Origin: a bacterium | GTDB taxonomy: Bacteria > Sysuimicrobiota > Sysuimicrobiia > Sysuimicrobiales > Humicultoraceae | Length of the DNA: 48,747 bases | Assembly: GCA_030018905.1 (NCBI GenBank) | Contig: JASEHJ010000002.1 | Coordinates: 1 to 48,747 of the forward strand | Reading direction: 5' to 3' | Notes under the pieces: generated by a model | Databases searched by the model: none | Told to the model about the DNA's origin: nothing | Seen by the model: the letters and a program-made list of their open reading frames with translations, nothing else | Program-made: the position numbers and the translations under genes | In this document: in pieces, positions 18,512 to 36,962 of the stretch | How positions within the stretch are numbered: the stretch's first letter is position 1 | How the letters are laid out: each line of letters opens with the position of its first letter

Positions 18512-19201
18512 ATGATCGTAGCCGAGCAGAAGCCCCTGGAGGCCGTCCTCAAGATGATGGCGCCGTACCAGAGGGTGCTGGTGGTCGGTTGTGCGAGCTG
18601 CGTGTCGGTCTGCCTCGCAGGTGGGGAGCGGGAAGTGAGCGTCCTCAGCTCGCTGGCCAGGCTGGCCCGCGGCACGCAGGGCGCGTCCATCGAGATAGCC
18701 GAGGCCACCGTGCATCGCCAGTGCGACCAGGAGTTTCTCCTGCCGCTGGCTTCCCAGGTGGAGGCGGCCGAGGCGGTCTTCTCGCTGGGGTGCGGGTGTG
18801 GGGTGCAGTTGATGGCGGAGACGTTCCCCCATCGCCGCGTGTTCCCGCTGCTGGACACCAAGTTCATGGGGATCACCCTCCAGCCCGGGGTGTGGGTCGA
18901 GCGGTGCCGCGGGTGCGGCGAGTGCATCCTCGACCGCACCGGCGGTATCTGCCCGATCGCGCGCTGCTCGAAGGGGTTGCTCAACGGGCCCTGCGGCGGA
19001 TACCGCGACGGGAAGTGCGAGGTGGACACCGCCGTGGACTGCGCGTGGCTGCTCATCTTCAACCGGCTTCAGACATTGGGGGAGTTGGAGTCCCTCCGCG
19101 CCATCATGGAACCAAAGGATTGGTCAGAAGCCGCGGTCGGCCGGCCGCGGCAGGTAGTGCGAGAAGACGTCAAAGTACCCATCGAGGAGGTAATCGCATG
19201 A
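18512..19201 (+). CDS. metV: Methylene-THF reductase Fe-S/Zn subunit MetV (copy 1)
   Basis: GCASCVSVC.AGGE; RQCD; CRGCGEC...TGGICPIARCSKGLLNGPCGG; CAW. Confidence 0.88.
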   Translation: MIVAEQKPLEAVLKMMAPYQRVLVVGCASCVSVCLAGGEREVSVLSSLARLARGTQGASIEIAEATVHRQCDQEFLLPLASQVEAAEAVFSLGCGCGVQLMAETFPHRRVFPLLDTKFMGITLQPGVWVERCRGCGECILDRTGGICPIARCSKGLLNGPCGGYRDGKCEVDTAVDCAWLLIFNRLQTLGELESLRAIMEPKDWSEAAVGRPRQVVREDVKVPIEEVIA

Positions 19202-23947: not shown

Positions 23948-24506
23948 GGCGCGGGCGCTGCCCGGCAGGACGGATCCTGCCTGGGCGCCGGTCATTGAGA
24001 CAGCCAGTGGGGAGCGCGTGGGGCTCTGCTTTGGTTGTGGCATATGCACCGGGAGCTGCCCCCTGGCTCCGGCAATGGATATGCTGCCGAGCCGTCTGAT
24101 GAAGGCGGTTCAGCTCGGGCTCAAGGAGCGGGTGCTGAAGGCCACCGCGCCATACCTCTGCGTCGGCTGCGAAACCTGTGCCGTCCGGTGCCCGAACGGG
24201 ATAGATGTCGCGCGTGTAATGGACGCGGTGCGCCAGGCGGGTCTTGCCAGGGGTGGGCCGGTACCCAGGGTGGACATCCAACGGTTTCACCAGTGGTTCC
24301 TGCGCACCGTGAGGTTGTTCGGCCGCGCCCACGAAGGGCTGCTCTCGGCTGGGTTCAGCCTGCAGCAGGGACGGCTGCGAGAGGATCTGCCCACCGGATG
24401 GGCCCTCATGCGGCATGGCAGGCTGGCACTGTGGCCCCATTTCATCCGGCGGCGCCGTGAGGTGCGCCGCCTGTTCCGGGCCATCGGGCAGAGGGGTGGG
24501 CGGTGA
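23934..24506 (+). CDS. hdrC: Heterodisulfide reductase subunit C-like (2x[4Fe-4S])
   Basis: CFGCGICTGSCP and CVGCETCAVRCPNGID..VMD. Confidence 0.88.
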   Translation: MLPREARALPGRTDPAWAPVIETASGERVGLCFGCGICTGSCPLAPAMDMLPSRLMKAVQLGLKERVLKATAPYLCVGCETCAVRCPNGIDVARVMDAVRQAGLARGGPVPRVDIQRFHQWFLRTVRLFGRAHEGLLSAGFSLQQGRLREDLPTGWALMRHGRLALWPHFIRRRREVRRLFRAIGQRGGR

Positions 24507-25375: not shown

Positions 25376-25391
25376 GGAAGGTGGTCTTGCC

Positions 25392-26069
25392 GTGATCGTT
25401 GCACAGCAGAAGCCCCTGGAGGATATCCGCCAGATGGCGCGCGGGTTCCGCCGCCTGTTGGTGCTCGGCTGCGGGACGTGCACCACCATCTGCTTCGCGG
25501 GCGGAGAGAAGGAAGTTGGGCTCCTCGCCACCTCGCTGCGGTCGGTACTGGGCCAGGAGATCGAAATCGAGGAAGCCGTGGTTCAACGGCAGTGCGAGTG
25601 GGAGTTCCTGGACCAGGTCGGCGAGGCGGTAGGCCGGGCCGAAGCGGTGCTGTCGCTGGGGTGCGGCGTGGGCGTGCAGGGAATTGGGGAACGCTACCCG
25701 GGAGTGGTGGTGCTGCCAGGGCTCAACACCGCCTTCATGGGGCTCACCGAGGCTCCGGGGATCTGGGGTGAGCGCTGCATGGCCTGCGGCGACTGCCTCC
25801 TGCACCGGACGGGCGGGATCTGTCCAGTGGCCCGGTGCGCCAAGAGCCTCCTCAACGGCCCCTGCGGGGGTGTCCAGGACGGGCACTGCGAGATTTCACC
25901 TGAGAACCCCTGTGCATGGGTGTTGATCTACGACCGCCTGATGCAGCAGGGCCGCCTGGAGCAACTGGAGGAGATCATTCCGGTTCGGGACTGGAAGGCG
26001 AGCCACTCCGGCGGACCGCGCCGCATCGTGCGGCCCGACTTGCGCGAGATGGTTGAGGAGGAGGTGTAG
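25392..26069 (+). CDS. metV: Methylene-THF reductase subunit MetV (copy 2)
   Basis: GCGTCTTIC.AGGE; RQCE; CMACGDC..TGGICPVARCAKSLLNGPCGG; directly upstream of metF. Confidence 0.9.
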   Translation: MIVAQQKPLEDIRQMARGFRRLLVLGCGTCTTICFAGGEKEVGLLATSLRSVLGQEIEIEEAVVQRQCEWEFLDQVGEAVGRAEAVLSLGCGVGVQGIGERYPGVVVLPGLNTAFMGLTEAPGIWGERCMACGDCLLHRTGGICPVARCAKSLLNGPCGGVQDGHCEISPENPCAWVLIYDRLMQQGRLEQLEEIIPVRDWKASHSGGPRRIVRPDLREMVEEEV

Positions 26070-26074
26070 GGGCC

Positions 26075-26992
26075 ATGCCCGCCGGCAGCAATCTAGAAGC
26101 GGTGCTGTCTGCCGGGCGGTTCGCCGTGACCGCCGAGTTGGGTCCGCCCAAAGGCACCAACCTGAGCGTGGTGGAGCGCAAGGCAGAGATCCTCAGGCAC
26201 TGCTGCGACGCCGTGAACCTGACCGACAATCAGACCGCCATCGTGCGCATGTCCAGCCTGGCGTGCGCGATCCACCTGCGCCGACTGGGTTTGGACCCGG
26301 TGATGCAGATGACGTGCCGCGACCGGAACCGTCTGGCCCTGCAGTCGGACGTCCTGGGCGCTGCGGGTGCGGGCGTGCGGAACTTCCTTTGCCTGAGCGG
26401 AGACCACCAGCAGTTCGGCAACCACCCAGGCGCCAAGAACGTTTTCGATCTCGACTCCATCCAGCTTATCCAGGTGCTGGCCGGCATGCGGGACACGCGC
26501 AGGTTCCAGGGCGGCGACGAGTTCACCGGAGACATCCCGATGTTCATCGGGGCCGCGGCCAACCCATTCGCCGACCCGCTGCCGTATCGGGTCGTCCGCC
26601 TGGCGAAGAAGGTGCGCGCAGGCGCCAATTTCGTCCAGACGCAGGCCGTCTTCGACCTGGAGATCTTCGGGCGCTGGATGGCCCAGGTGAGGGCACGGGG
26701 GCTCCACGAGCAGGTTGCCATCATGGCCGGAATCGTACCCCTGAAGTCGGTCGGCACGGCCCGCTACATGCGGGACTACGTCTCGGGTATAGTTGTGCCC
26801 GATGCCATCATCGCCCGGATGGAGGACGCCGCGGATCCCAAGGCCGAAGGCATGGCCATCGCCGTGGAACTCATTGACGCCGCGCGCGAGATACCAGGCG
26901 TCCGGGGTGTGCACATCATGGCGGTGGGGTGGGAGGAGGTCGTCCCGATCCTGGCGGAGCGGGCCGGGCTCCTGCCGCGGCCGCTGATATGA
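26075..26992 (+). CDS. metF: Methylene-THF reductase MetF (copy 1)
   Basis: VTAELGPPKG, NLTDNQ, QMTCRDRNRLALQSD, LSGDH, FDLDS, QTQ, GVHIMA. Confidence 0.94.
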   Translation: MPAGSNLEAVLSAGRFAVTAELGPPKGTNLSVVERKAEILRHCCDAVNLTDNQTAIVRMSSLACAIHLRRLGLDPVMQMTCRDRNRLALQSDVLGAAGAGVRNFLCLSGDHQQFGNHPGAKNVFDLDSIQLIQVLAGMRDTRRFQGGDEFTGDIPMFIGAAANPFADPLPYRVVRLAKKVRAGANFVQTQAVFDLEIFGRWMAQVRARGLHEQVAIMAGIVPLKSVGTARYMRDYVSGIVVPDAIIARMEDAADPKAEGMAIAVELIDAAREIPGVRGVHIMAVGWEEVVPILAERAGLLPRPLI

Positions 26993-27054: not shown

Positions 27055-27471
27055 ATGCAACCTCGGATCTTGGTGGTGGATGACGACCCGGACATCGCTG
27101 TGGCCGTTCGGATGGTACTGGAGGCCGCAGGCTATCAGGTGGAGACCGCCCCCGACGGCGAGGAGGGGCTCGAGAGGGTCCGCCGGGAAGTGCCCGACCT
27201 GATCATATTGGACATGCTTATGCCCAGGTTGGATGGGTACGGCGTGGTGCGGGCGCTGAAGGAGAAGCCCCGCTGGGCGGCCATTCCGATCGTGATCTTC
27301 ACTGCAGTCGGTGAAGAGGCCAGCCGGCGGAGGTACGAGCTGGAAACCGGGCTGGCCATGGACGTGGACGACTACGTCGAGAAGCCGGTAAGGCCGGTAG
27401 AGCTGCTGCACCGTGTCGGCAAGGTGCTGGAGCGGCGCGGCAAGCGGGCAAGCAACCCGGGAGAGGTGTAG
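27055..27471 (+). CDS. Single-domain response regulator (receiver only)
   Basis: ILVVDDD, ILDMLMP..DG, IFTA, YVEKP; no output domain. Confidence 0.9.
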   Translation: MQPRILVVDDDPDIAVAVRMVLEAAGYQVETAPDGEEGLERVRREVPDLIILDMLMPRLDGYGVVRALKEKPRWAAIPIVIFTAVGEEASRRRYELETGLAMDVDDYVEKPVRPVELLHRVGKVLERRGKRASNPGEV

Positions 27472-27475
27472 GACC

Positions 27476-27901
27476 TTGGCTGGAGACCCAAAGAGCATCC
27501 TGTTGATTGACGACGATGCCGACTTCGTCAAGGCTACCCGGATGGTGCTGGAGAGCCGCGCCTACCGGGTGACCGTGGCCCTCGACGGGGTGGAAGGGCT
27601 ACGCCTGGCACGCCAGGCCCCGCCCGACCTGATCATCCTGGATGTGATCATGCCGTTCAAGGACGGTTTTACGGTCTGCGAGGAGATGAAGCGGGATCCG
27701 GCGCTGGCCGCGGTTCCGGTTCTGATGCTTACGTCGTTTGCCGAGCGGCGCGGCGATACCAACCTTCCGGTCAGCGCCGGGTTCGGCCTGGAGGCAGAGG
27801 ACTACCTTGACAAGCCGGCTCCTCCAGGCGTGCTTCTCGCCCGGGTGGAGCGGCTGCTCTCGCGTCACGGCCGGGCGGAAGGAGGGACAGGGACGCCATG
27901 A
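27476..27901 (+). CDS. Single-domain response regulator (receiver only), second copy
   Basis: TTG start behind GAGAGG; ILLIDDD, ILDVIMP..DG, MLTS, YLDKP; no output domain. Confidence 0.88.
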   Translation: MAGDPKSILLIDDDADFVKATRMVLESRAYRVTVALDGVEGLRLARQAPPDLIILDVIMPFKDGFTVCEEMKRDPALAAVPVLMLTSFAERRGDTNLPVSAGFGLEAEDYLDKPAPPGVLLARVERLLSRHGRAEGGTGTP

Positions 27902-28782
27902 CCCTGCGAGCGGCCCTGGCTCAAGGCCAGTTCGTGGTGACGGCCGAGGCCTCCCCGCCCAAGGGTACCAATGTGGCAGGAGCCATCGCAGAGGCCGAGC
28001 ACCTGCGGGGGCGTGTGCAGGCGTTCAACGTCACCGACCAGCAGAGCTCGGTGATGCGCCTTGGGTCCCTGGCGCTCTGCTACCTGCTCAAAGAGCGGGG
28101 CCTCGAGCCCATCTTCCAGGTCACCTGCCGCGACCGGAACCGGATCGCCCTGCAGTCAGATCTTCTGAGCGCGGCGGCGCTGGGTATTGAGAACGTTCTC
28201 TGCCTGACCGGTGACCACGTGAAGCTGGGCGATCACCCGCAGGCCAAGCCTGTCTTTGACCTGGACTCGGTCTCTCTGCTGCGGGCTGCGGCCGGGCTGG
28301 TGGCGGGTCAGGACATGGCGGGCAAGAAGCTGGACGGCACGCCCGACTTCTTCCTGGGCGCGGTCGTCAGCCCCGGCGCGGATCCGGTGGAACCCCAGCT
28401 ACTCAAGATGGAGAAGAAGGCGCAGGCCGGCGCCGAGTTCTTCCAGACTCAGGCCATCTTCGACCCGGACGCGTTCGCCCGCTTCATGGAAGCGGCCCGA
28501 CCCATGGGCAAGCCGGTCTTTGCCGGGATCATCATGCTTAAGTCCGCCGGCATGGCCCGGTTCATGAACCGGAACGTTCCGGGCGTGCACGTTCCCGACC
28601 GCCTGATCGAGGTCATGGAAACCGCCAAGGATCGCCAGGAAGCCAGCGTGGGCGTTGCCGTGGAGCTGATCCGGCAGCTCCGGCCGCTGTGCCAGGGCAT
28701 CCACCTGATGGCCATGGGGTGGGATCACCTGCTGCCGCGGGTATTGGAGGCCACCGGCCTGGCAGCCCAGGGAGTGGTGTAG
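27898..28782 (+). CDS. metF: Methylene-THF reductase MetF (copy 2)
   Basis: VTAEASPPKG, NVTDQQ, QVTCRDRNRIALQSD, LTGDH, FDLDS, FQTQ, GIHLMA. Confidence 0.93.
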   Translation: MTLRAALAQGQFVVTAEASPPKGTNVAGAIAEAEHLRGRVQAFNVTDQQSSVMRLGSLALCYLLKERGLEPIFQVTCRDRNRIALQSDLLSAAALGIENVLCLTGDHVKLGDHPQAKPVFDLDSVSLLRAAAGLVAGQDMAGKKLDGTPDFFLGAVVSPGADPVEPQLLKMEKKAQAGAEFFQTQAIFDPDAFARFMEAARPMGKPVFAGIIMLKSAGMARFMNRNVPGVHVPDRLIEVMETAKDRQEASVGVAVELIRQLRPLCQGIHLMAMGWDHLLPRVLEATGLAAQGVV

Positions 28783-28783
28783 C

Positions 28784-29965
28784 GTGGTCAACCAGGAGGC
28801 CTTGGAGCGCTCGTCCCTGTTCATGGATCTGCCCGCGGCGCTGCTGCGCCGTCTGGCTGCGCTGGGCGAGGAGCGGTCCTACTCGCCGGGACAGCGGATC
28901 TTCCAGGAAGGGGAGGGGGCCACGCACCTGTGCATCATCAAGGAGGGGCGCGTCGCCCTTGAGATGGACCTTCGGATCGGCAGGGCCGAGGCCGGCGAGA
29001 GGCGCACCTTTGCAGCGGTGCTGGGTCCCCCTGACTGCTTTGGCTGGTCCGCGCTTGTGCCTCCCCATACCCGCACCATGTCGGCCGTGGCGATTCAAGC
29101 CACGACCGTCGTGGCATTGGAGCGTGAGGCGCTGGAGCGCCTGATCGCCGATGACCCTCGGGCCGGGGTCCTGCTGATGCGCGGGTTGGCCCAGCTCGTG
29201 GGGAATCGCCTGATGGAGGCCAGGGCCAAGCTGGGCTTCGTGATTGCGCTGGTGTCACACGAACTGAAGGCACCTCTGGCGGCCGTCGAGAGCTATCTTC
29301 AAGTGATGCTGGGCGGATACGCGGGCGAGGTCCCGGACCGGCAGAGGGAGATGCTTGCCCGGTGCAGCATCCGTGTGCAGGAGTTGGTTGAACTCATCAA
29401 CAGCCTGCTTCGGGTCTCCCGGATCGAGACCGGCGACCTCTCCGCAGAGCTCGGTGTCGAATCCCTGCAGGACATCATTGAGAAGGCCGTGGAGAATGTG
29501 GCCGCCGCTGCCCGGGAGAAGGGTGTGCTTCTTCGAGTGCATGTGCCCGCGGATCTGCCGCCGCTCCTGATGTCGCCGCTCAGAATCCAGGAGGCGTTCA
29601 CGAACCTCCTGGACAACTCGGTGAAGTTCACGCCATCCGGCGGAGAGGTCGTCGTGACCGTTGAGGACCGAGGAGACAACATCTGTGTGCAGGTGCGCGA
29701 TACCGGGATTGGGATAGCCTCCTCCGAGCTGCCCCGGATCTTCGACGAGTTCTACCGGGGGCAGATGGCCCAGTCGAAGGGGCTGGGATTGGGCCTGTCC
29801 CTCGTGAAGAGGATCGTCGAGGCCCACCGGGGCCAGATCTGGGCGGAGAGTCCCCCACCGGGAGAGGCGCGCGGCACAGTCTTCACGTTTGCGCTGCCCA
29901 AGGCCCTGACCGTCCAGGTTTCACCTGCTGGTGGACCGCCGGTAGGGCAGGGGGAGGCAGCCTGA
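28784..29965 (+). CDS. Soluble sensor histidine kinase: cNMP-binding domain + HisKA + HATPase
   Basis: IFQEGE..LCIIKEGRV..FGWSALV..RTMSA (cNMP fold); SHELKAP H-box; NLLDNSVKF; DTGIGI; IFDEF; GLGLGL; no transmembrane segment. Confidence 0.92.
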   Translation: MVNQEALERSSLFMDLPAALLRRLAALGEERSYSPGQRIFQEGEGATHLCIIKEGRVALEMDLRIGRAEAGERRTFAAVLGPPDCFGWSALVPPHTRTMSAVAIQATTVVALEREALERLIADDPRAGVLLMRGLAQLVGNRLMEARAKLGFVIALVSHELKAPLAAVESYLQVMLGGYAGEVPDRQREMLARCSIRVQELVELINSLLRVSRIETGDLSAELGVESLQDIIEKAVENVAAAAREKGVLLRVHVPADLPPLLMSPLRIQEAFTNLLDNSVKFTPSGGEVVVTVEDRGDNICVQVRDTGIGIASSELPRIFDEFYRGQMAQSKGLGLGLSLVKRIVEAHRGQIWAESPPPGEARGTVFTFALPKALTVQVSPAGGPPVGQGEAA

Positions 29966-29966
29966 G

Positions 29967-32900
29967 ATGATTCAGCGCGACGCCCTGGATCGGTGCGCCC
30001 TGTTCGGAGGGCTTGGGCCATCGGCCCGCGACCTGGTGGCCTCGCTGGGGACCGTGGTCTCCTTTCAGTCCGGGGAGCGCATCTTCTCCGAGGGTGAGGA
30101 GGCGCGCGACTTCTACGTGATCCATGAGGGCCGGGTGGCCCTGGAGATGCGGGCTCCTGAGCAGGGAGAGGAACTGCCCAGGTCGGTGGTCGTGTCCGTG
30201 CTGGGAGCAGGCGAGAGCCTTGGCTGGTCCGCCCTGGTGCCGCCGTTCGTGCTGACGATGTCCGCGGTGTGCTTGGAGCCCGCGGTTCTGGTCGCCATCA
30301 GCGGTCCTGTTCTGCGCAGGTTGATGTCGCTGGACTGGGAGATCGGTTATCACATCATGGCAGGGCTGGTGGATCTCGTTGAGTACCGCATGGCGAACAT
30401 ACGGACTCGCCTCACGCAGATGCAGGCGGTGGCCACCCACGATCTGCGCTCTCCCGCTGCCAGGGTGACCAGCTACCTGGAGGCCATGCTGGCAGGATCG
30501 GCCGGCGACCTGACCGAGGATCAACGGCACATCCTTGAGCGGTGCCGCCAGCGGCTGGCGGACCAGATCGAGTTGCTGGACCGCCTGGTGCGCGTCTCCC
30601 CGCCCGTGCCTGAGGAGCGCGGCGGTGGCCTGCCGTCCGCGCCAGCGGCCCGGCCCGCCGGTCCGTCCGAGGAATCCGAAGCGGCCGGTGTGGCCGAGGA
30701 GGCTCCCGGCGCTGCCGTGGGCGCGGCGATGGTGGTCGGCGGCGGGATCGCCGGGATCCAGGCCGCGCTGGATCTGGCCGACGCCGGCATCAAGGTGCAC
30801 CTGGTGGAGCGCGGTTCGGCCATCGGCGGCCGCATGGCCACGCTCGACAAGACCTTCCCCACGAACGACTGCGCGATGTGCATCCTGTCGCCCAAGCTCT
30901 CCGGCATCAGGCTTCATCCCAACATCGAGCTCCACACATTGGCCGAGATGGAGCGTCTGGAGGGAAGCGCCGGCGATCTCCGTGCGACCATCCGGCATCG
31001 CCCGCGCTTCGTGGACTTGCTTCGCTGCACCGCGTGCGGCGACTGCGCCACGGCGTGTCCGATAGGCGTGCCCAGGGAGTTCAACGCCGCCCTTGCGCCA
31101 CGTACTGCGATCTACCGCTCCTACGCCCAGGCCGTCCCGGGCGCCTACGCCATTGACAAGCGGGGCTCCGCACCCTGCCGCGACGCCTGCCCCATTCATC
31201 AGCGGGCGCAGGGGTATGCGGCGCTGGTGGCTCAGGGGCGATACGAAGAGGCATTCCGGGTGATCCAGATGGAGAACCCCTTCCCCGGGATCTGCGGCCG
31301 CGTCTGCAACCACCGGTGCGAGGACGCCTGCTCCCGTGGCCTGGTAGACGGAGCGGTGAACCTCGCGGCGCTGAAGCGGTTCGTCGCCGATTGGGCGTAT
31401 GCCCGGCCGCGCGAGCCCGAGGCCCAGGTCGAACCGGTGCACCCCGAACGCGTGGCCGTTGTGGGCTCAGGTCCCGCGGGTCTCACCGCTGCCCGCGATC
31501 TTGCCGTCAAAGGGTACCGGGTGACCGTGTTCGAGGCCCTGCCCGCAGCCGGCGGGATGATGCGGGTCGGAATCCCGGAGCACCGCCTGCCCACGCCGAT
31601 CATCGAGCGGGAGATCGCCGACATAACCGGGCTGGGCGTTGAGATCCGGTGCAACAGCCGTGTGTCGCACGTGCGCGACCTGTTTGCCGAGGGATTCAAC
31701 GCCATCTTCTTGGCCACCGGCGCCCATCGGGCACGGAAGCTTCCCATTCCGGGTGCGGACCTGCCGGGCGTGCTGGTCAGCACCGATGTGCTGCAGAACG
31801 CCCGCCTGGGCCAGCCTGTTTCACTGGGCCGGCGGGTGCTTGTTCTGGGAGGAGGCAACGTCGGTTTCGACGTGGCCAGGACGTGCGTGCGGCTGGGGGC
31901 CGAGGTGCACGTGGCGTGTCCCGAGGCGCGCGAGGCGATGCCGGCCCACGCCTGGGAGATCGCCGCGGCCGAGGAAGAGGGCATTCGCGTCCACCCCTCC
32001 ACGTCTTTCGTCCGGGTGCTGGAGCGGGACGGCCGCGCCGCGGGCATGGAGTGCCGCAAGGTGCGTTCCATGCGTTTTGACGAGGCGCGGCGCCTGCACC
32101 TCGACCTGGTCGAGGGCAGCGAGCACGTGCTGGAGGCGGACACGGTCATCTTCGCGATCGGCCTGGCGCCACAGACCGAGATCACCTCCGGTCTGCCTGG
32201 TATCGCCACCACGCCGTGGGGATCGATGCAGGTGGAAGCGGACTCCCAGTCCGCGGGCTACCCCGGCCTGTTCGCGGGCGGGGATCTGGTCACCGGCACC
32301 GCGTTCGTGGTGGACGCCATCGCGGCCGGAGCGCGGGCCGCGCGCGGCATCCACGCCTACTTGCGCGGGACGACCCTGGAGGCCGATCCCCAGGCTCCGG
32401 TGGCCAAGCTCACCCCGGACGAGGTCGAAGGTCGGTTGCTGCGCGGGCAGATACGGTTGCAGCCTCGCTCCGGCGTTCACGAGCTCCCTCCGGCGGTGCG
32501 GCGCGCCTCGTTCGTCGAGGTGGACGAGGGGTTGACCGAGGAGGAGGCGCGCCAGGAGGCTGCGCGCTGCCTGGCCTGCGGCGTGTGCGCCGAGTGCTTG
32601 GCGTGCGTGCAGGCGTGCCGCCGCGAGGCGATCAACCATGCCGAGACCGAACGCGTGGAAACGCTCCGCGTCGGTGCCGTGGTCCTGGCGCCGGGCATCG
32701 AGCCTTTCGACGCAGCGCACGCGGATGCCTACGGCGTGGGCCGCTTCCCGAACGTCCTGACCGGGCCGCAGTTCGAGCGACTCCTCTCCGCGTCGGGGCC
32801 GACGCAGGGTCACATCACCCGACCCTCCGACAGCGCGGAACCCCGCAGGATCGCCTTCCTGCAGTGCGTGGGCTCGCGCGACCAGCAAAACCGCTACTGC

Positions 32901-35138
32901 TCCTCGGTGTGCTGCATGTACGCCACCAAAGAGGCGATCCTGGCGCGAGAGCACCTTCCCGAGGCCGAGTGTACGGTCTACTACGGGGATCTGCGCGCCT
33001 TCGGCAAGGGCTTCGATGCCTACCTCGAGCGGGCCAAGCGCAACCAGGTCCGGTATGTGCGCACGCGCGTGGCGTCTATCCGTGAAGACCCGCACACCCG
33101 GTCGCTCGTCTTCAGGGTGGAGGAGAACGGGGTTGTACGCGAAGAACAGGCCGACTTGGTCGTGCTGGCGGTGGGTTTAACCCCGCCCAGGGACGCCGAC
33201 GCGCTGGCCCGTGCCGCGGGAATAGCGCTCAACGAGCACGGATTCGCCGCCACGGTACCCTCCGCGCCGATGGAGACCAGCCGACCCGGCGTGTTTGTGG
33301 CCGGAGGATTCCGCGGGCCCAAGGACATCCCCGACTCCGTTGTGGACGGCAGCGGCGCGGCCGCGGCTGCGATGGCCGTTATCGGGTCGGCCCGGGGGAC
33401 CCAGATCGTTCCCAAGATCTATCCTCCCGAGATGTTGCTGGATCCGGAACCGCGGGTCGGCGTGTTCGTATGCCACTGCGGGTCGAACATCGCCGGCGTG
33501 GTGGACGTGGTCGGCCTGGCCGACCACGCCAGGACGCTGCCGGGCGTGGTCCTGGCCGAGACGTCGCTCTATACCTGCTCGGCCGATACCCTGATACGCA
33601 TCAAGGAGGCAATAATCGAGGAGCACCTCAACCGGGTGGTGGTGGCGAGCTGCACCCCGCGTACGCACGAACCTATTTTCCGAGAGACGCTGCGCGAGGC
33701 CGGGCTCAACCCCTACCTGTTCGAGATGGCCAACATTCGCGACCAGTGCAGCTGGGTGCACCGCGACGATCCCTCCGGCGCCACGGATAAGGCGCGCGCG
33801 CTGATCGCGGGGGCGGTCGCCCGAGCCGCCCGCCTGGCCCCGCTGCACAAGGTGCTGGTGCCGATGCGAAACGAGGCACTGGTGATCGGTGGAGGCGTGG
33901 CAGGCCTGACCGCCAGCCTCAACCTGGCCGAGCAGGGATTTTCGGTGGTGCTGGTGGAGCGGTCGCAGGAGCTGGGTGGCCGCCTGCGCTCACCGCTCCT
34001 GACCTGGGGCGGCGCTCCGGCCGCGGATTCGCTGCGGGAGTTGGTCGGACGGGTAACCGGCCATCCGCGTGTGCGGGTGCTGACCGGATGCAGGGTCGTT
34101 TCATCCCACGGCACGGTAGGCAACTTCGAAACCACGGTCGCAGGCCCGGATGGAGAGCACAGCTTCGGGCACGGGGTGACCGTCATCGCCACCGGCCTTC
34201 AGGAGTGGAAGCCCGCGGCCTACGGGGCCGGCCAGGACGCACGCGTGGTGACGCTCTCGGAGTTTGAGTCGCGCCTCATGACCGGTGGCGGGTCGCCTCA
34301 GGAGACTCCGTCATCGGTGGTAATGCTGTTGTGCGCCGGCCCCTGGGACCGCATGCCCTTCTACTGCAGCCGCACCTGCTGCGCCCAGTCCCTGGCCGCC
34401 GCGTTGGCGTTCAAGCGGGTGAACCCCGAGGTTCCCGTCACGGTCATCGCCCGCGAGATCCGGACCTACGGGTTTACCGAGGAACTGTTCACCCAGGCGC
34501 GGCAGGCGGGGATCGTGGTGTTCCGCCACTCGGCCGAGGAGCCCCCGCAGATCACGCGCACTCCTGAGGCCGCGACCGTAACCGTGCGGGACCAGGCGCT
34601 CGGCGAGGAGATCACCCTGGATGCCGGCCTGTTGGTCGTGGCGCCGGCTCAGGTGCCCTCGGACGGCGCGTCCGACCTTACCACGATCTTCAAGGTGCCG
34701 GCGTCCGCGGACGGCTTCTTCCTGGAGGCCCATGTGAAGCTGAGGCCGGCGGAGTTCGCCAGCGAGGGGCTGTTCCTCTGCGGAGGCGCTCACTACCCCA
34801 AGCCGCTGGACGAGGCGATCGCCCAATCCCTGGCATCTGCGGCTCGGGCCAGCACCCTGTTGTGGCGCGACAGCCTGGAGGTCGGCGGCGTTGTGACCGC
34901 GGTTGACCGCGACCGCTGCACAACCTGCCTGACCTGCCTCCGGGTGTGCGCCTACGACGCCATATCGTTTGACGCCGACGGCATTGCCGTCATTGAGCCC
35001 ACCCGCTGCCAGGGCTGCGGCCTGTGCGTGGCGGTGTGTCCGGGCAGCGCGCTCAGCCTGGGACACTACTCGCGAGACCAGATGCTCGCCAAGATTACCG
35101 CGCTGCTGGGCGAGATGGAGGTCGTTCGTGTCAACTGA
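29967..35138 (+). CDS. hdrA: Large HdrL-type flavoprotein (HdrA-GltD/NfnB-like insert-HdrA) with N-terminal cNMP + HisKA/DHp module
   Basis: Residues 1-210 cNMP domain + THDLRSP. VVGGGIAG..LDKTFPTNDCAMC from residue ~255. GltD-like APCRDACP..CGRVC..GSGPAG..GGGNVG. QCVGSRD..YCSSVCC. Second module GVFVCHCG..NIRDQCSWVH..GGGVAG..FFLEAHVKLRP. C-terminal 2x[4Fe-4S]. Confidence 0.9.
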   Translation: MIQRDALDRCALFGGLGPSARDLVASLGTVVSFQSGERIFSEGEEARDFYVIHEGRVALEMRAPEQGEELPRSVVVSVLGAGESLGWSALVPPFVLTMSAVCLEPAVLVAISGPVLRRLMSLDWEIGYHIMAGLVDLVEYRMANIRTRLTQMQAVATHDLRSPAARVTSYLEAMLAGSAGDLTEDQRHILERCRQRLADQIELLDRLVRVSPPVPEERGGGLPSAPAARPAGPSEESEAAGVAEEAPGAAVGAAMVVGGGIAGIQAALDLADAGIKVHLVERGSAIGGRMATLDKTFPTNDCAMCILSPKLSGIRLHPNIELHTLAEMERLEGSAGDLRATIRHRPRFVDLLRCTACGDCATACPIGVPREFNAALAPRTAIYRSYAQAVPGAYAIDKRGSAPCRDACPIHQRAQGYAALVAQGRYEEAFRVIQMENPFPGICGRVCNHRCEDACSRGLVDGAVNLAALKRFVADWAYARPREPEAQVEPVHPERVAVVGSGPAGLTAARDLAVKGYRVTVFEALPAAGGMMRVGIPEHRLPTPIIEREIADITGLGVEIRCNSRVSHVRDLFAEGFNAIFLATGAHRARKLPIPGADLPGVLVSTDVLQNARLGQPVSLGRRVLVLGGGNVGFDVARTCVRLGAEVHVACPEAREAMPAHAWEIAAAEEEGIRVHPSTSFVRVLERDGRAAGMECRKVRSMRFDEARRLHLDLVEGSEHVLEADTVIFAIGLAPQTEITSGLPGIATTPWGSMQVEADSQSAGYPGLFAGGDLVTGTAFVVDAIAAGARAARGIHAYLRGTTLEADPQAPVAKLTPDEVEGRLLRGQIRLQPRSGVHELPPAVRRASFVEVDEGLTEEEARQEAARCLACGVCAECLACVQACRREAINHAETERVETLRVGAVVLAPGIEPFDAAHADAYGVGRFPNVLTGPQFERLLSASGPTQGHITRPSDSAEPRRIAFLQCVGSRDQQNRYCSSVCCMYATKEAILAREHLPEAECTVYYGDLRAFGKGFDAYLERAKRNQVRYVRTRVASIREDPHTRSLVFRVEENGVVREEQADLVVLAVGLTPPRDADALARAAGIALNEHGFAATVPSAPMETSRPGVFVAGGFRGPKDIPDSVVDGSGAAAAAMAVIGSARGTQIVPKIYPPEMLLDPEPRVGVFVCHCGSNIAGVVDVVGLADHARTLPGVVLAETSLYTCSADTLIRIKEAIIEEHLNRVVVASCTPRTHEPIFRETLREAGLNPYLFEMANIRDQCSWVHRDDPSGATDKARALIAGAVARAARLAPLHKVLVPMRNEALVIGGGVAGLTASLNLAEQGFSVVLVERSQELGGRLRSPLLTWGGAPAADSLRELVGRVTGHPRVRVLTGCRVVSSHGTVGNFETTVAGPDGEHSFGHGVTVIATGLQEWKPAAYGAGQDARVVTLSEFESRLMTGGGSPQETPSSVVMLLCAGPWDRMPFYCSRTCCAQSLAAALAFKRVNPEVPVTVIAREIRTYGFTEELFTQARQAGIVVFRHSAEEPPQITRTPEAATVTVRDQALGEEITLDAGLLVVAPAQVPSDGASDLTTIFKVPASADGFFLEAHVKLRPAEFASEGLFLCGGAHYPKPLDEAIAQSLASAARASTLLWRDSLEVGGVVTAVDRDRCTTCLTCLRVCAYDAISFDADGIAVIEPTRCQGCGLCVAVCPGSALSLGHYSRDQMLAKITALLGEMEVVRVN

Positions 35139-35598
35139 CGTTGCCCCGGTCCCAACGGAGACCGAGGCCAAGCCGGCCGCGGTGGAGATCGTGGCCTTCT
35201 GCTGCTTCTACTGCGCCTACGCCGCCGCCGACCTAGCGGGCGTGATGCGTCTGGCCTATCCGCCCAACGTGAAGGTGGTCCTGCTGCCGTGCACCGGCGG
35301 AATTGACCCCATCTACATCCTGCGCGCCTTCGAGGCCGGGGCCGACGGGGTGTTCGTGGCAGGATGCCTAGAAGGGCAGTGCCACTACCAGGTGGGCAAC
35401 TACCACGCCAAGGCGCGTGTCCGATACCTCAAGGAGCGTCTCGAGGAGGTAGGCATCGGTGGGCAGCGCCTGGAGATGTTCAATCTCTCCTCGGCCGAGG
35501 GCCCGCGGTTTGCCGAGATAGCCCGAGAGATGGCCGAACGCATCACGGCACTGGGCCCGACGCCGCTCAAGCGGCCGCGGACCGGAGCAGATCTGTGA
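35128..35598 (+). CDS. mvhD: MvhD/FlpD [2Fe-2S] subunit
   Basis: GGAGG RBS and GTG start; AFCCFYCAYAAADLAG; PCTG; GADGVFVAGCLEGQCHY..GN. Confidence 0.92.
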   Translation: MSTDVAPVPTETEAKPAAVEIVAFCCFYCAYAAADLAGVMRLAYPPNVKVVLLPCTGGIDPIYILRAFEAGADGVFVAGCLEGQCHYQVGNYHAKARVRYLKERLEEVGIGGQRLEMFNLSSAEGPRFAEIAREMAERITALGPTPLKRPRTGADL

Positions 35599-36962
35599 CG
35601 AGGTCAACCATGACCCGTTCTACGCTTGCCCACGAGGTCCGGCAGGAGAGCGGCCAGGATCTCCCGCTCTGCTTCCAGTGTAAGGTGTGCACGAGCGGAT
35701 GCCCGCTGGCCGCGGAGATGGACCTGGCGCCGCACGCCGCGATGCGCGCGCTGCAGCTGGGGGTTGACGAACGGCTGCTGCGGAGCAACACCTTCTGGCT
35801 GTGCGCTTCCTGCCAGGCGTGCACCGCGCGCTGCCCCCAGGGGATTGACGTGGCCCGCGTTATGGATGCGCTGCGGATCGTCGCCGCGCGGCGGCGGATT
35901 CCTGCGCGCGTGCCCGAGGCGCTGATCTTCACGCAGGCCGCGGTTCGCAGCATCCGCCTGTTCGGGCGGCTGTTCGAGGCGGGCGTGGGAGCAGAGGTCA
36001 ATCTCCGGATGCGCCAGCCGCTCCGCCAGGGGAAGTTCGCGCTCCGGATGCTCAAGGCGGGTAAGCTTCGGCTGGTGCCCGACCTACCCGGCCGCCCCTC
36101 GGACAAGCAGGCGGAAGCGGGCGAGATTGCATACTACCCAGGGTGCGCGCTGCACGCCAGTGCGAGGGAGTACGATACCTCCACTCGCGCTGTAGCCGCT
36201 ACGCTCGGGGTAAAGCTGCGCGAGATCGGCGGGTGGCGGTGCTGCGGGGCCACCGCAGGGCACCAGACTTCTGCCGATCTAGCCCTGGAGCTGCCGCTGG
36301 CCAATCTGAGCCTTGCGGCCCGGGCAGGGCACGCCGCCGTGACCGCGCCCTGCGCCGCCTGCTTCTCACGCCTGCGCCATGCCCAGGTGGAGGGCGCCGA
36401 CCGGGCGCCGCAGGCGTTGCGCGTGCAACATCTGCTGCACACCTTCCTGGAAGGCGGGCTGGAGTCGGTTCGTGCTAGGGTCAAGCGGCCGCTACATGGT
36501 ATGCGGGTGGCCTGCTATTACGGCTGCCTGCTCACGCGGCCGCCCGCGGTCACCGGCGCCGAGCGCCCTGAGTATCCGATGGAGATGGACCGGCTGATCA
36601 GAGCGTTAGGCGGGGTGCCGGTCCCATGGTCGTACAAGACCGAGTGCTGCGGGGCGGGGCATGCGATCGTGCGTCCGGGCCTGGTTATTGAACTGACGGG
36701 CCGCATCCTGCGGGACGCTCAGGCCGCCGGCGCGGAGGCGGTGGCGGTGGCCTGCCCTCTTTGTCACAACAACCTTGACGCCAGGCAGGAAGAGGCGGCA
36801 CGCGCCGCCGGGCTGCCTCCCATGCCGGCCTTCTTCTTCACTCAACTGATGGCAATCGCGTTTGGTCTCCACGGGCAGGCCGTTGGCCTAGAAGGTCTGA
36901 TGACCGATCCACGCCCGCTGCTCCAGATGCGGGGGCTGACCGATAGCGGCGCCGAGATCTGA
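35595..36962 (+). CDS. Fused HdrC-HdrB protein
   Basis: CFQCKVCTSGCP and CASCQACTARCP followed in frame by YYPGC..CCGA..PCAAC and YYGC..CCGA..ACPLC. Start at GTG 35595 or ATG 35610. Confidence 0.88.
   Translation: MTRSTMTRSTLAHEVRQESGQDLPLCFQCKVCTSGCPLAAEMDLAPHAAMRALQLGVDERLLRSNTFWLCASCQACTARCPQGIDVARVMDALRIVAARRRIPARVPEALIFTQAAVRSIRLFGRLFEAGVGAEVNLRMRQPLRQGKFALRMLKAGKLRLVPDLPGRPSDKQAEAGEIAYYPGCALHASAREYDTSTRAVAATLGVKLREIGGWRCCGATAGHQTSADLALELPLANLSLAARAGHAAVTAPCAACFSRLRHAQVEGADRAPQALRVQHLLHTFLEGGLESVRARVKRPLHGMRVACYYGCLLTRPPAVTGAERPEYPMEMDRLIRALGGVPVPWSYKTECCGAGHAIVRPGLVIELTGRILRDAQAAGAEAVAVACPLCHNNLDARQEEAARAAGLPPMPAFFFTQLMAIAFGLHGQAVGLEGLMTDPRPLLQMRGLTDSGAEI

What the first reader, a model, noticed from the sequence alone, without database searches (positions are those of the whole stretch)
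29967..30730. His-phosphoacceptor (cNMP-HisKA/DHp) module fused to an HdrL flavoenzyme
Seen: the first ~210 residues of the 1723-aa HdrL are colinear with the N-half of the adjacent kinase. Compare IFSEGE/IFQEGE, GRVALEM in both, GWSALVPP in both, THDLRSP/SHELKAP (His158 vs His159) and SYLEAMLAG/SYLQVMLGG. The HATPase domain is absent; a Pro/Ala/Glu linker leads in frame into HdrA. Established: DHp helices dimerise and carry the phospho-His, and HdrA-family proteins are flavin-based electron-bifurcation modules. Inference: the enzyme could heterodimerise with, or be phosphorylated by, the neighbouring kinase. Either the Hdr complex is regulated by phosphorylation or it reports its redox state into a phosphorelay. 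I do not know of a described HdrA with this architecture.
Basis: partly seen in the sequence, partly recalled or inferred. Interest (0 to 1): 0.9.

Follow-up and report, generated by a model that had tools for sequence, protein, structure and literature searches.

The report
Kinase sensor half fused to HdrL
A large redox enzyme of the CO2-fixing acetyl-CoA pathway carries at its front a copy of the neighbouring sensor kinase's sensing and dimerising half, a real and rare fusion, but the histidine that would take a phosphate is lost in many relatives, so it is probably a regulatory or docking handle, not a phosphorelay step.

Summary
ORF 29967-35138 (1723 aa) begins with a CRP-like cNMP-binding domain and a DHp-like helical hairpin. 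These are 42% identical over 216 residues (E 8e-41) to the N-half of the kinase that ends 1 nt upstream. A Pro/Ala/Glu linker of about 40 residues then runs in frame into an HdrA/NfnB-type HdrL. The fusion is real. It stands uninterrupted in 9 genomes and in 12 protein clusters. The module's dN/dS is 0.06-0.25, like the enzyme's. An SD-like motif precedes its start in 9 of 9 genomes.

The phosphoacceptor reading is only partly supported. His158 is H in 7 of 17 distinct module sequences, F in 6, S in 2 and Y in 2. The kinase paralogues keep His in 8 of 8. Of 14 loci with known context, 5 lack the kinase and none of those 5 has His; 7 of the 9 with the kinase have it. HdrL also occurs without the module.

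Best reading: a kinase-derived sensor and dimerising or docking module tethered to the enzyme, whose conserved role does not need phospho-His. Phosphotransfer in the window's own genus stays open. It is a new variant of known kinds, confined to a narrow uncultured lineage (CSP1-3/Sysuimicrobiota relatives).

The parts
29967..30371 (+). CRP-like cyclic-nucleotide-binding-fold sensor domain of HdrL (residues 1-135)
   Evidence: Pfam cNMP_binding at residues 31-121, 51.8 bits. The AlphaFold2 model has mean pLDDT 89 and a beta-barrel at 28-112. The Foldseek best matches are GlxR, CRP and PKA-R chains, E down to 7e-13. In the alignment to PKA RI-alpha, W87 and L96 stand where the cNMP-contacting Glu and Arg stand; the role of those two residues is recalled knowledge.
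30372..30599 (+). DHp-like helical hairpin (residues 136-211), paralogous to the kinase's HisKA domain
   Evidence: The hairpin lies within the 42%-identical alignment to the kinase (residues 1-211). Pfam HisKA gives 24.4 bits, below the cut-off. The model shows one long helix 124-175, a loop and a helix 184-208. In the 17 distinct sequences, 28 of 76 sites are invariant.
30438..30440 (+). Codon of His158 (CAC), the putative phosphoacceptor
   Evidence: The codon is CAC or CAT (H) in 6 genomes, TAC (Y) in G002, TTC (F) in G020 and TCC (S) in G011. Among 17 distinct sequences the residue is H in 7, F in 6, S in 2 and Y in 2.
30600..30716 (+). Pro/Ala/Glu-rich linker (residues 212-250), fast-evolving and of variable length, always in frame
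   Evidence: Identity to G000 is 13-72%, against 64-97% for the module. dN/dS is 0.36-1.9. G006 has an 18-codon deletion. One metagenome contig has a 9-nt deletion, and a 975-letter contig spans 30441-31200 without gaps.
30717..35138 (+). HdrL enzyme part: an HdrA-like flavin/FeS protein with an inserted NfnB/GltD-like NAD(P)H module (about residues 401-800), a second HdrA-like half and a C-terminal 2x[4Fe-4S] domain
   Evidence: Pfam hits are. PDB sequence matches include HdrA 5odc (E 2e-169, 4 stretches), NfnI 5jca_L (E 2e-73, residues 402-800) and GltD. The name HdrL is defined in PMC2702500 (passages read).
29950..29969 (+). SD-like GGGGGAGG, the kinase stop TGA (29963-29965) and the HdrL start ATG (29967-29969)
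   Evidence: The sequence is shown. A GGAGG-like motif lies 6-10 nt before the aligned start in 9 of 9 orthologues.
28784..29965 (+). Histidine kinase with CNB sensor, HisKA and HATPase_c domains; the donor paralogue of the module
   Evidence: Pfam hits are. The H-box SHELKAP is invariant in 8 of 8 full kinase orthologues. The kinase clade is sister to the module clade (97/86) against 13 other kinases of the family.
27055..27471 (+). Single-domain response regulator RR1
   Evidence: Pfam Response_reg 89 bits, with no output domain.
27413..27901 (+). Single-domain response regulator RR2 (the ORF as listed; the REC domain is at residues 29-145, so the true start is probably later)
   Evidence: Pfam Response_reg 73 bits.
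27898..28782 (+). MetF2, a second methylene-THF reductase catalytic subunit
   Evidence: Pfam MTHFR, E 6e-41. It directly precedes HdrL in relatives that lack the kinase.
34969..35598 (+). MvhD (FlpD) gene; the domain is at residues 74-196 of this ORF, so the real start probably lies just after the HdrL stop
   Evidence: Pfam FlpD, E 1e-47.
35364..36962 (+). HdrD-like protein (an HdrC + HdrB fusion); the start is probably later than listed because it overlaps MvhD
   Evidence: Pfam Fer4_17 and 2x CCG.
18512..19201 (+). MetV2, the second MetV-like subunit, which belongs with MetF2 and HdrL
   Evidence: Pfam DUF5981, E 1e-35. The order MetV-like, FTHFS, MetF2, HdrL is kept in G011 and G009.

Best explanation
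The N-terminal 211 residues of HdrL are a translated, selected copy of the sensor (CRP-like fold) and dimerisation hairpin (DHp) of the neighbouring histidine kinase. The copy arose once by duplication of the kinase's 5' half. A floppy linker of about 40 residues ties it to an NAD(P)H-linked HdrA-type enzyme. By gene context that enzyme works with MetV2, MetF2, MvhD and an HdrCB-like protein as a methylene-tetrahydrofolate reductase complex of the Wood-Ljungdahl pathway.

The module's conserved job does not depend on a phospho-histidine. It most likely acts as a ligand-binding, dimer-forming or partner-docking appendage (a 'pseudo-transmitter'). In that role it would couple the enzyme's assembly or activity to the same unknown small-molecule signal that the kinase senses.

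Shown: homology, single origin, fusion, purifying selection, loss of His in many lineages, and existence of the module without the kinase and of the enzyme without the module. Inferred: dimerisation, ligand binding and the effect on the enzyme. The ligand is probably not a cyclic nucleotide.
For: Homology: 42% identity over 216 residues, E 8e-41.

Fusion: uninterrupted frames of 1409-1799 aa carrying the module occur in 9 of 41 related genomes. The 5.8-billion-protein collection holds 12 clusters of 1356-1738 aa.

Single origin: the module clade has 100/100 support. It is sister to the adjacent-kinase clade (97/86) against 13 other kinases of the family. Its stem is twice as long (0.87 against 0.44).

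Selection: dN/dS is 0.06-0.25 for the module, 0.10-0.16 for the enzyme and 0.36-1.9 for the linker. Linker indels are in frame.

Start: an SD-like motif stands before the module start in 9 of 9 genomes, and none is conserved before residue 251.

His158: H in 7, F in 6, S in 2 and Y in 2 of 17 distinct sequences. R161, P163, A164, R166, V167, Y170 and L171 are invariant in the same set, and the kinases keep His in 8 of 8.

Independence from the kinase: G011 (96% complete) has the module but no kinase or RR1 orthologue. Five of 14 loci lack the kinase.

Fold: the model has pLDDT 89 and shows a CNB barrel plus a helical hairpin. CRP, GlxR and PKA-R are the best fold matches.

Ligand: W87 and L96 replace the cNMP-contacting Glu and Arg in the alignment to PKA RI-alpha.

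Divergence from the kinase: eight DHp sites are fixed differently in module and kinase, for example A to R at H+8, S to R at H+36 and L to Q at H+42. This points to a surface of its own.
Against: No experiment or expression data exist; no RNA run was listed.

A long, variable and nearly neutral linker is a poor conduit for allostery, so how the module would act on the enzyme is unclear.

HdrL orthologues that are 75-77% identical do without the module: G009 and G019 and G029. It is therefore not needed for catalysis.

In the window's own genus the H-box is intact (H-D-L-R-S-P) and the kinase and two response regulators are adjacent. His is found in 7 of 9 loci that have the kinase and in 0 of 5 that lack it. 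That pattern is what a phosphorelay would predict, although these loci amount to only about five independent lineages, and two of the lineages with the kinase (G002, G020) lack His.

Dimerisation of the module itself was not tested. Only the heterodimer with the kinase was, and it got weak support.
Confidence: 0.55

Rival explanations
1. Phosphorelay, the first reader's view, restricted to lineages that keep His (including this window). His158 would be phosphorylated in trans by the catalytic domain of the adjacent kinase within a heterodimer, or would exchange phosphoryl groups with the two single-domain response regulators. The Hdr complex would then be controlled by, or report into, the two-component system.
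For: The window has an intact H-box, H158-D-L-R-S-P. The kinase ends 1 nt before the HdrL start. Two REC-only regulators with the usual acidic pocket, Asp, Thr and Lys are encoded upstream (the motif is recalled). His is kept in 7 of 9 loci with the kinase and in 0 of 5 without it. His is kept between G000 and G001 at dS of about 1, where the linker is only 13% identical. Kinase/module heterodimer prediction: weak support, score 0.53, best control 0.00. The tool's calibration says that 58 of 80 solved complexes and 2 of 110 mismatched pairs reach the mark, but only 7 of those 80 do so at 0.60 or under. The runs agree in at least 85% of contacts and the partner's pLDDT is at least 79. The weak sequence matches of the hairpin in the PDB are the phosphotransferase ChpT (E 0.05) and the EnvZ DHp (E 0.11).
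Against: His is absent in 10 of 17 distinct module sequences while its neighbours are invariant. Two lineages with the kinase present lack it: G020 has F and G002 has Y. In the F-bearing clade the residue is as stable as H is in the other clade (F in P0007, P0009, P0012, P0014 and G020). That pattern suggests a structural or contact role for an aromatic side chain. The module survives under purifying selection without the kinase. G029 has the two-component cassette but an HdrL without the module. The His/kinase association rests on about five independent lineages. The heterodimer score may reflect likeness to solved kinase dimers and does not separate hetero- from homodimers.
Confidence: 0.2
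2. DivL-like reverse signalling. The hairpin would be a docking site that reads the phosphorylation state of the single-domain response regulators RR1 and RR2, without transferring phosphate, and so would recruit them to or regulate the enzyme.
For: DivL of Caulobacter has Tyr in place of the phosphorylatable His. It lacks kinase and phosphatase activity, still dimerises and binds DivK~P through the usual docking face. Y550F still discriminates DivK~P, and R553 (+3) and Y562 (+12) are needed for binding (PMC4211667, abstract and passages read). Here the replacements are Y, F and S, and R161 (+3) and Y170 (+12) are invariant in 17 of 17 sequences. The cassette encodes two REC-only proteins with no output domain. 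The module was born from the kinase that presumably docks them.
Against: G011 has the module but no RR1 orthologue: its best match is 50% identical, against 80% for true orthologues. Five of 14 loci lack the cassette. Several docking-face positions are fixed differently from the kinase, at H+3, H+6 and H+8. G029 has the regulators but no module. No binding test was run.
Confidence: 0.12
3. Kinase titration or scaffold. The module would pair with the kinase's own hairpin and either silence the kinase or tether it to the enzyme, so that kinase output depends on how much HdrL is made.
For: The two hairpins are paralogous. The two genes are translationally coupled. The heterodimer prediction gave weak support, 0.53 against 0.00.
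Against: From recalled knowledge of kinase paralogues, duplicated DHp domains usually evolve so as not to cross-pair. Eight hairpin sites are fixed differently. The module persists without the kinase. The prediction cannot tell a heterodimer from a homodimer.
Confidence: 0.08
4. No function of its own. The module would be a leftover of a duplication, an assembly artefact, or a separately translated piece, with the enzyme starting internally near residue 250.
For: Orthologues in G009 and G019 start at about residue 248-261. In the window a GAGGAGG lies 13 nt before the GTG of V251. The enzyme works without the module in relatives.
Against: Module dN/dS is 0.06-0.25 in 8 of 8 pairs. The frame is uninterrupted in 9 genomes and 12 clusters from independent assemblies. 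Linker indels are in frame. The SD-like motif before V251 is not conserved, whereas the one before M1 is present in 9 of 9.
Confidence: 0.05

Closest known systems
HdrL of Desulfobacterium autotrophicum and Syntrophobacter fumaroxidans (large HdrA/glutamate-synthase-like fusion followed by MvhD)
   Same: The protein has an HdrA-like part with an inserted NAD(P)H-binding NfnB/GltD-like module, and MvhD is encoded directly downstream (PMC2702500 and PMC5947623, passages read).
   Different: The passages I read describe no sensor or DHp module on those proteins. Here the partner genes are MetF, MetV and an HdrCB-like protein inside an acs/Wood-Ljungdahl cluster, not dsr genes.
HdrABC-MvhD-MetVF methylene-THF reductase complexes of acetogens (Moorella/Sporomusa type)
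   Same: The window also holds that set: split HdrA with MvhD, HdrC, HdrB, MetV and MetF at 20925-26992. The MetV2, MetF2, HdrL, MvhD and HdrD set looks like a second version of it.
   Different: HdrL carries its own NAD(P)H module and the kinase-derived module. I saw only the search listing and abstracts of the acetogen papers, and the complex here is inferred from gene order alone.
CNB-HisKA-HATPase_c sensor kinases of about 375-400 aa with the GWSAL motif
   Same: The module is 38-41% identical to several of them over residues 5-211. It is sister to the adjacent member.
   Different: The module lacks the catalytic ATPase domain and the His is not conserved. The kinases keep His in all 15 family rows aligned (the 16th row is the window's module).
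DivL pseudo-histidine kinase (Caulobacter)
   Same: The phosphorylatable His is replaced by an aromatic residue, while the hairpin and the +3 Arg and +12 Tyr of the docking face are kept (PMC4211667).
   Different: DivL keeps a degenerate catalytic domain and PAS sensors and regulates another kinase. Here the hairpin is fused to a metabolic enzyme, some lineages still have His, and no regulator binding has been shown.
Enzymes with an N-terminal cyclic-nucleotide-binding regulatory domain, such as the mycobacterial cAMP-dependent protein acetyltransferase (recalled, not searched here)
   Same: A CNB-fold sensor is tethered by a linker to a catalytic domain.
   Different: Those enzymes bind cAMP through the canonical Glu and Arg. 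Here both are replaced, and a DHp hairpin lies between sensor and enzyme.

Membership tests
HisKA / DHp domain (Pfam PF00512) | Score at or above Pfam's gathering cut-off | tested here: not met
   The score is 24.4 bits against a cut-off of 26.9, E 3e-5. Homology is nevertheless secure through the 42%-identical paralogue, which scores 42.5 bits.
HisKA / DHp domain (Pfam PF00512) | Two-helix hairpin continuous with the sensor's last helix | tested here: met
   The model has helix 124-175, a loop and helix 184-208, with block pLDDT 84-94.
HisKA / DHp domain (Pfam PF00512) | Conserved phosphoacceptor His in the H-box | tested here: not met
   His is present in the window (H158) but in only 7 of 17 distinct orthologous modules and 3 of 12 clusters. 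The kinases keep it in 8 of 8.
HisKA / DHp domain (Pfam PF00512) | Homodimeric four-helix bundle | not tested
   Only a heterodimer with the kinase N-half was predicted, with weak support (0.53 against 0.00).
Histidine kinase (transmitter module) | HATPase_c catalytic domain after the DHp | tested here: not met
   There is no HATPase_c hit in residues 1-250, nor among the 25 of 32 families shown for the whole protein. Only 39 linker residues separate the hairpin from the FAD motif.
cNMP_binding (PF00027) / CRP-like effector domain | Pfam score above cut-off and a beta-barrel fold | tested here: met
   The score is 51.8 bits against 27.5. Foldseek matches to GlxR, CRP and PKA-R have probability 1.00.
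cNMP_binding (PF00027) / CRP-like effector domain | Phosphate-binding-cassette Glu and Arg that contact the cyclic nucleotide (recalled definition) | tested here: not met
   In the alignment to PKA RI-alpha, W87 aligns with the Glu of G-E-I-A-L and L96 with the Arg of R-A-A-T. W87 is invariant. L96 is nearly invariant among the 12 clusters; G011 has F there.
HdrL (HdrA/NfnB-like fusion) | HdrA-like flavin/FeS domains plus an NAD(P)H-binding GltD/NfnB-like module, with MvhD next door | tested here: met
   See (HdrA 5odc E 2e-169; NfnI 5jca_L E 2e-73 at residues 402-800; FlpD E 1e-47). The definition comes from PMC2702500.
Pseudo-histidine kinase of the DivL kind | Non-phosphorylatable residue at the His site with a conserved response-regulator docking face | tested here: inconclusive
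   Y, F or S stands at the site in 10 of 17 sequences, and R161 and Y170 are invariant. However, 7 of 17, including the window, still have His.
Pseudo-histidine kinase of the DivL kind | Binds a phosphorylated single-domain response regulator | not testable with these tools
   This needs a binding assay.
Histidine phosphotransferase (ChpT/Spo0B kind) | DHp-like His carrier without an active ATPase that shuttles phosphate between receivers | tested here: inconclusive
   The best PDB sequence match of the hairpin is ChpT at E 0.05, which is not significant. His is not conserved.

The most novel reading that the evidence does not exclude
In the window's genus, the adjacent CNB kinase would phosphorylate His158 of HdrL, or His158 would trade phosphate with the two REC-only proteins. 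A two-component phosphorelay would then end on, or start from, a flavin-based electron-bifurcation-type enzyme of the Wood-Ljungdahl pathway. That would be direct post-translational two-component control of a core redox enzyme of carbon fixation. Sister lineages would have frozen the same module into a phosphate-independent docking or dimerisation handle after losing the His.
Probability: 0.2. Interest if true: 0.85.

Novelty: new variant of a known kind. Interest (0 to 1): 0.55.

Why it matters
Regulation of Wood-Ljungdahl enzymes and of HdrA-type bifurcating complexes at the protein level is essentially uncharted. My three literature searches for such a fusion or link found no description of one.

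Here a two-component cassette sits inside the acs/methyl-branch cluster, and half of its kinase has been welded onto one of two alternative methylene-THF reductase systems. That gives a concrete, testable handle on three questions:
- how an uncultured autotroph chooses between, or tunes, its MTHFR systems;
- what small molecule a widespread non-canonical CNB sensor family binds;
- how a transmitter module is repurposed after duplication.

On the last point, natural variants with H, Y, F and S at the phospho-site, with and without the kinase, make a ready-made mutational series.

The fusion is limited to a narrow lineage: 12 clusters in 5.8 billion proteins, and 8 species genomes in the GTDB scan. 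It is therefore a case study and not a general principle.

Tried and rejected
Assembly artefact or frameshift in the linker. Rejected, because 9 independent genome assemblies and 12 protein clusters keep one frame. A 975-letter contig of another metagenome spans 30441-31200 with 57 mismatches and no gap, and the only linker indel seen was 9 nt. These are Logan contigs of relatives (at most 0.25 of the sampled words), not reads of this organism.

Internal start near residue 250. Not supported, because no SD-like motif is conserved there. It cannot be excluded without proteomics.

RNA evidence. No RNA holder was listed.

Truncated kinase in G004. My first reading (a kinase cut at residue 184) was wrong. 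The gene is interrupted by a run of N, and its C-terminus follows the gap.

Other HdrA fusions with this module.
- phmmer of residues 1-215 against 1.84 billion representatives gave 3716 hits at E <= 0.001. Among the 150 listed, only two exceed 800 aa (P0015 of 840 aa and P0126 of 3779 aa, both multi-CNB proteins), and none is of HdrL-like length or match pattern (their domains were not scanned).
The query's own cluster did not appear, presumably because it is represented by a module-less HdrL. More distant independent fusions are therefore not excluded.
- The ESM Atlas gave only CNB/HisKA clusters at scores of 0.81 or less, which are leads only.

Fold search for the hairpin. The CNB domain dominated all matches. 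A sequence search of the hairpin alone gave only non-significant ChpT and EnvZ matches.

His/kinase association as statistics. The raw counts are 7 of 9 against 0 of 5. I do not treat them as a test, because the loci collapse to about five lineages on the trees.

Canonical cAMP/cGMP sensing. Considered unlikely, because the Glu and Arg positions are W87 and L96.

Tools and data I could not use.
- Supplements are closed. Table S5 and the Supplementary Data of PMC11604079 may list these genes, and I could not see them.

Genomes G015 and G024 are flagged unpublished.


Full report
WHAT IS THERE

The window is GC-rich (0.65-0.70), and every gene I annotated lies on the + strand. ORF 29967-35138 encodes 1723 residues.

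Pfam finds the following in it:
- a cNMP_binding domain at residues 31-121;
- a sub-threshold HisKA match at 149-207 (24.4 bits against a cut-off of 26.9);
- HdrA-type FAD/FeS domains;
- a Fer4_20 + Pyr_redox_2 block at about 401-800;
- a second FAD-binding start near residue 1303;
- a C-terminal 2x[4Fe-4S] domain.

Against solved structures the enzyme part matches HdrA (5odc, E 2e-169, four stretches). Residues 402-800 match NfnI large subunit and GltD (5jca_L, E 2e-73). This is the 'HdrL' architecture defined for Desulfobacterium autotrophicum as a heterodisulfide reductase/glutamate synthase fusion with an NADH site, followed by mvhD (PMC2702500, passages; also PMC5947623, passages). An MvhD gene (FlpD, E 1e-47) and an HdrC+HdrB fusion do follow here.

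THE OBSERVATION

The gene just upstream (28784-29965) is a 393-aa kinase with cNMP_binding, HisKA and HATPase_c domains. BLASTP aligns HdrL residues 1-211 with kinase residues 1-212 at 42% identity, E 8e-41. Homology stops at the end of the second hairpin helix. Then come 39 Pro/Ala/Glu-rich residues and the GGGIAG FAD motif.

IS THE FUSION REAL?

- The N-terminal 250 residues find uninterrupted frames of 1409-1799 aa in 9 of 41 related genomes. These are G000-G006 in the window's genus and G011 and G020 in a second genus.
- The 5.8-billion-protein collection holds 12 clusters (at 90% identity) of 1356-1738 aa with the module. The 1356-aa member is G002, whose gene has a frameshift near codon 1350, in a part of the enzyme far from the module.
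- Module identity to the window is 64-97%, and the linker's is 13-72%.
- Pairwise dN/dS is 0.06-0.25 for the module, 0.10-0.16 for the enzyme and 0.36-1.9 for the linker, in 8 of 8 pairs.
- Linker indels are in frame: 18 codons in G006, and 9 nt in one contig of another metagenome. A 975-letter contig from another study spans 30441-31200 without gaps (these are contigs of relatives, not reads of this organism).
- A GGAGG-like motif lies 6-10 nt before the module's start codon in 9 of 9 genomes. In the window the kinase's TGA ends 1 nt before the ATG. No such motif is conserved before residue 251.

The module is therefore translated, selected and fused. A minor internal start cannot be excluded without proteomics.

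ORIGIN

In a tree of N-halves, the 17 module sequences form one clade (100/100) and the adjacent kinases another (100/100). With 13 further members of the same kinase family added, module plus adjacent kinases group together (97/86). The module's stem is twice as long (0.87 against 0.44). This fits one duplication of the local kinase's 5' half followed by faster change. That kinase family is wide: phmmer found 3716 hits at E <= 0.001, and the full-length ones listed are about 372-407 aa. It shares the GWSAL motif and an invariant His.

THE HISTIDINE

Within the module His158 is not conserved.
- Among the 12 clusters it is H in 3, F in 5, Y in 2 and S in 2.
- Among 17 distinct sequences it is H in 7, F in 6, S in 2 and Y in 2.
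- The codons form a one-step series: CAC/CAT, TAC, TTC, TCC.
- R161, P163, A164, R166, V167, Y170 and L171 are invariant in 17 of 17, and D159 is kept in 16 of 17.
- The kinases keep S-H-E-L-K-A-P in 8 of 8.

Each clade keeps its own residue over comparable depth. H holds across G000-G001 at dS of about 1. F holds across five of eight members of the other clade. The site is therefore constrained, mostly to an aromatic ring, but not to a phosphorylatable one.

CONTEXT AND CO-OCCURRENCE

The window carries a complete Wood-Ljungdahl cluster. In order it holds:
- CooC, CODH, AcsB, AcsC, RACo, CooC, DUF3786, AcsD, a pterin-binding AcsE-like protein and a FolC-like ligase;
- MetV2 and FTHFS;
- a split HdrA with MvhD, then HdrC, HdrB, MetV1 and MetF1;
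- RR1, RR2, MetF2, the kinase, HdrL, MvhD and HdrD;
- FchA, FolD, NuoE/F-like subunits and FdhA.

Synteny by tblastn gives 14 distinct module-bearing loci with known context.
- Nine have the kinase adjacent: G000, G003 (also seen as L025 and L027), L026, G004, G005, G006 and G001 with H; G002 with Y; G020 with F.
- Five have FTHFS, MetF2 and HdrL with no kinase or regulators: G011 and L040 with S; L042 and L028/L029 with F; L030/L031 with Y.

G011 (96% complete) has no kinase orthologue anywhere. Its best full-length match is its own module. It also has no RR1 orthologue: 50% identity against 80% for true orthologues.

Conversely, HdrL without the module exists. G009 and G019 are about 75-77% identical over the whole enzyme part (80-81% over residues 233-732), start at residue 248-261 and have no cassette. 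G029 has RR1, RR2, MetF2, the kinase and then an HdrL starting at residue 233, within 96 nt of the kinase's end.

All four combinations of cassette and module therefore occur. The raw association (His in 7 of 9 loci with the kinase and 0 of 5 without) is what a phosphorelay predicts. On the trees, however, it reduces to about five lineages, two of which (G002, G020) have the kinase but no His. I treat it as a hint only.

STRUCTURE

An AlphaFold2 model of residues 1-220, built on 26 aligned sequences, has mean pLDDT 89. It shows a beta-barrel (28-112), one continuous helix 124-175, a loop and helix 184-208. The linker is disordered. The best PDB fold matches are GlxR, CRP and PKA regulatory subunits.

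In the sequence alignment to PKA RI-alpha, W87 and L96 stand at the positions of the Glu and Arg that I recall as the cyclic-nucleotide contacts. W87 is invariant, and L96 is nearly invariant across the 12 clusters (G011 has F there). The kinase family also has W at the first position. The sensor is thus a CNB fold that probably binds something other than cAMP or cGMP.

A complex prediction of the module with the kinase N-half gave 'weak support':
- score 0.53, best of three controls 0.00;
- by the tool's calibration, 58 of 80 solved complexes and 2 of 110 mismatched pairs reach the mark, but only 7 of those 80 do so at 0.60 or under;
- the runs agree in at least 85% of contacts, and the partner's pLDDT is at least 79.

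Kinase hairpin dimers are solved, so this may reflect likeness. It cannot separate a heterodimer from homodimers.

HOW IT MOST LIKELY WORKS

The conserved function cannot be phosphotransfer. The module is kept under purifying selection where His, kinase and regulators are all gone.

What is conserved is the sensor barrel, the hairpin core and an exposed face below the His site (R161, R166, Y170). Eight hairpin positions are fixed differently from the kinase, for example A to R at H+8, S to R at H+36 and L to Q at H+42.

The linker is long, variable and nearly neutral. That argues for a tethered module acting through dimerisation, ligand-dependent contacts or partner docking, and not through a rigid helical relay.

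I therefore favour (0.55) a kinase-derived 'pseudo-transmitter' that ties the MetV2-MetF2-HdrL-MvhD-HdrD system to the signal sensed by this CNB family. The closest mechanistic precedent for a hairpin that has given up its His is DivL. DivL has Tyr at the site, no kinase or phosphatase activity, retained dimerisation and binding of a phosphorylated single-domain regulator through residues at +3 and +12 (PMC4211667). The same offsets are invariant R and Y here.

That makes regulator docking a serious rival (0.12). Its weakness is that some module-bearing genomes lack the regulators. Phosphotransfer in the His-bearing genus, which includes this window, remains possible (0.2).

COMPARISON AND NOVELTY

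Each part is a known kind: HdrL, a CNB sensor kinase, and a degenerate DHp.

The combination was not found in print with three searches:
- 'cyclic nucleotide-binding' + 'heterodisulfide reductase' + 'histidine kinase': 0 papers;
- 'HdrA' + 'cNMP': 0 papers;
- a five-term search on Hdr, two-component systems and phosphorylation: 6 papers, none on this by title or abstract.

JGI's automatic product names already note the CRP-like part.

The carriers are uncultured bacteria. NCBI titles read 'Armatimonadota bacterium' and 'Candidatus Fervidifonticultor' species. That genus is named in the CSP1-3/Sysuimicrobiota paper, which assigns CODH/ACS to the family Humicultoraceae (PMC11604079, abstract and passages). 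In those passages I found no occurrence of 'Hdr', 'MetF' or 'histidine kinase', apart from one reference title containing 'heterodisulfide'.

The finding is a new variant of known kinds and is confined to a narrow lineage.

VERDICT

Observation confirmed. Interpretation partly supported. Interest 0.55.

Noticed in passing
window 18512-19201 and 18589-20907: A second MetV-like gene (DUF5981, E 1e-35) lies at 18512-19201. The FTHFS ORF as listed from its first TTG (18589) overlaps it in another frame. Its first 214 residues have no Pfam family, so the true FTHFS start is probably near 19210. The apparent conservation of the 'extension' in relatives is likely the MetV gene read in the other frame.
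   Followed up: partly
window 41817-41819: The FdhA-like gene is split into ORFs 40686-41819 and 41832-43586, which are in the same frame. The in-frame TGA sits in the context ...CARV-TGA-HAPSV..., which I recall as the selenocysteine site of formate dehydrogenases. No SECIS or sel genes were looked for.
   Followed up: no
window 20925-22106 and 21980-23947: The first HdrA is encoded as two ORFs in different frames, the second fused to MvhD. The same split is seen in G020, G002 and other relatives, so it is a conserved two-gene HdrA and not an error.
   Followed up: partly
relatives G009, G011 and G019 against G000 and G020 (L013-L023): The core order MetV2, FTHFS, MetF2, HdrL, MvhD, HdrD, FchA, FolD is interrupted in the window's genus and in G020. 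One block (split HdrA-MvhD, HdrC, HdrB, MetV1, MetF1, RR1, RR2) lies between FTHFS and MetF2, and the kinase lies between MetF2 and HdrL. The two-component cassette therefore travels with the second (HdrABC-MetVF) reductase system.
   Followed up: partly
L023 (G019) about 8560-8620 against window 29945-29975: The end of MetF2 plus the HdrL start in G019 (...GGAGGCGGCCTGATGATC, protein tail AEAA*) resembles the end of the kinase plus the module start in the window (...GGAGGCAGCCTGAGATGATT, tail GEAA*). This could be a trace of the insertion junction, or just a shared SD-like motif in GC-rich DNA.
   Followed up: no
L017 (G002), HdrL codon about 1350: A frameshift in a G-rich run splits the HdrL of G002 into 1356 aa plus the remainder. 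This is the same genome whose module has Tyr at the His site. It may be an assembly error or the start of decay.
   Followed up: partly
L019 (G004) 2217-2330 and L014 (G006): The G004 kinase gene is interrupted by a run of N. The G006 kinase has a stop 5 codons before the usual end.
   Followed up: yes
window 43596-46138: A second two-component system lies right after FdhA. It consists of a HAMP-GAF-HisKA_3 kinase and a LuxR-type response regulator, and is followed by class I fumarate hydratase genes.
   Followed up: no
window 14703-15374 and 459-1844: A DUF3786 protein sits between CooC and AcsD. An ethylbenzene-dehydrogenase-like (EB_dh) domain protein stands at the window's start.
   Followed up: no
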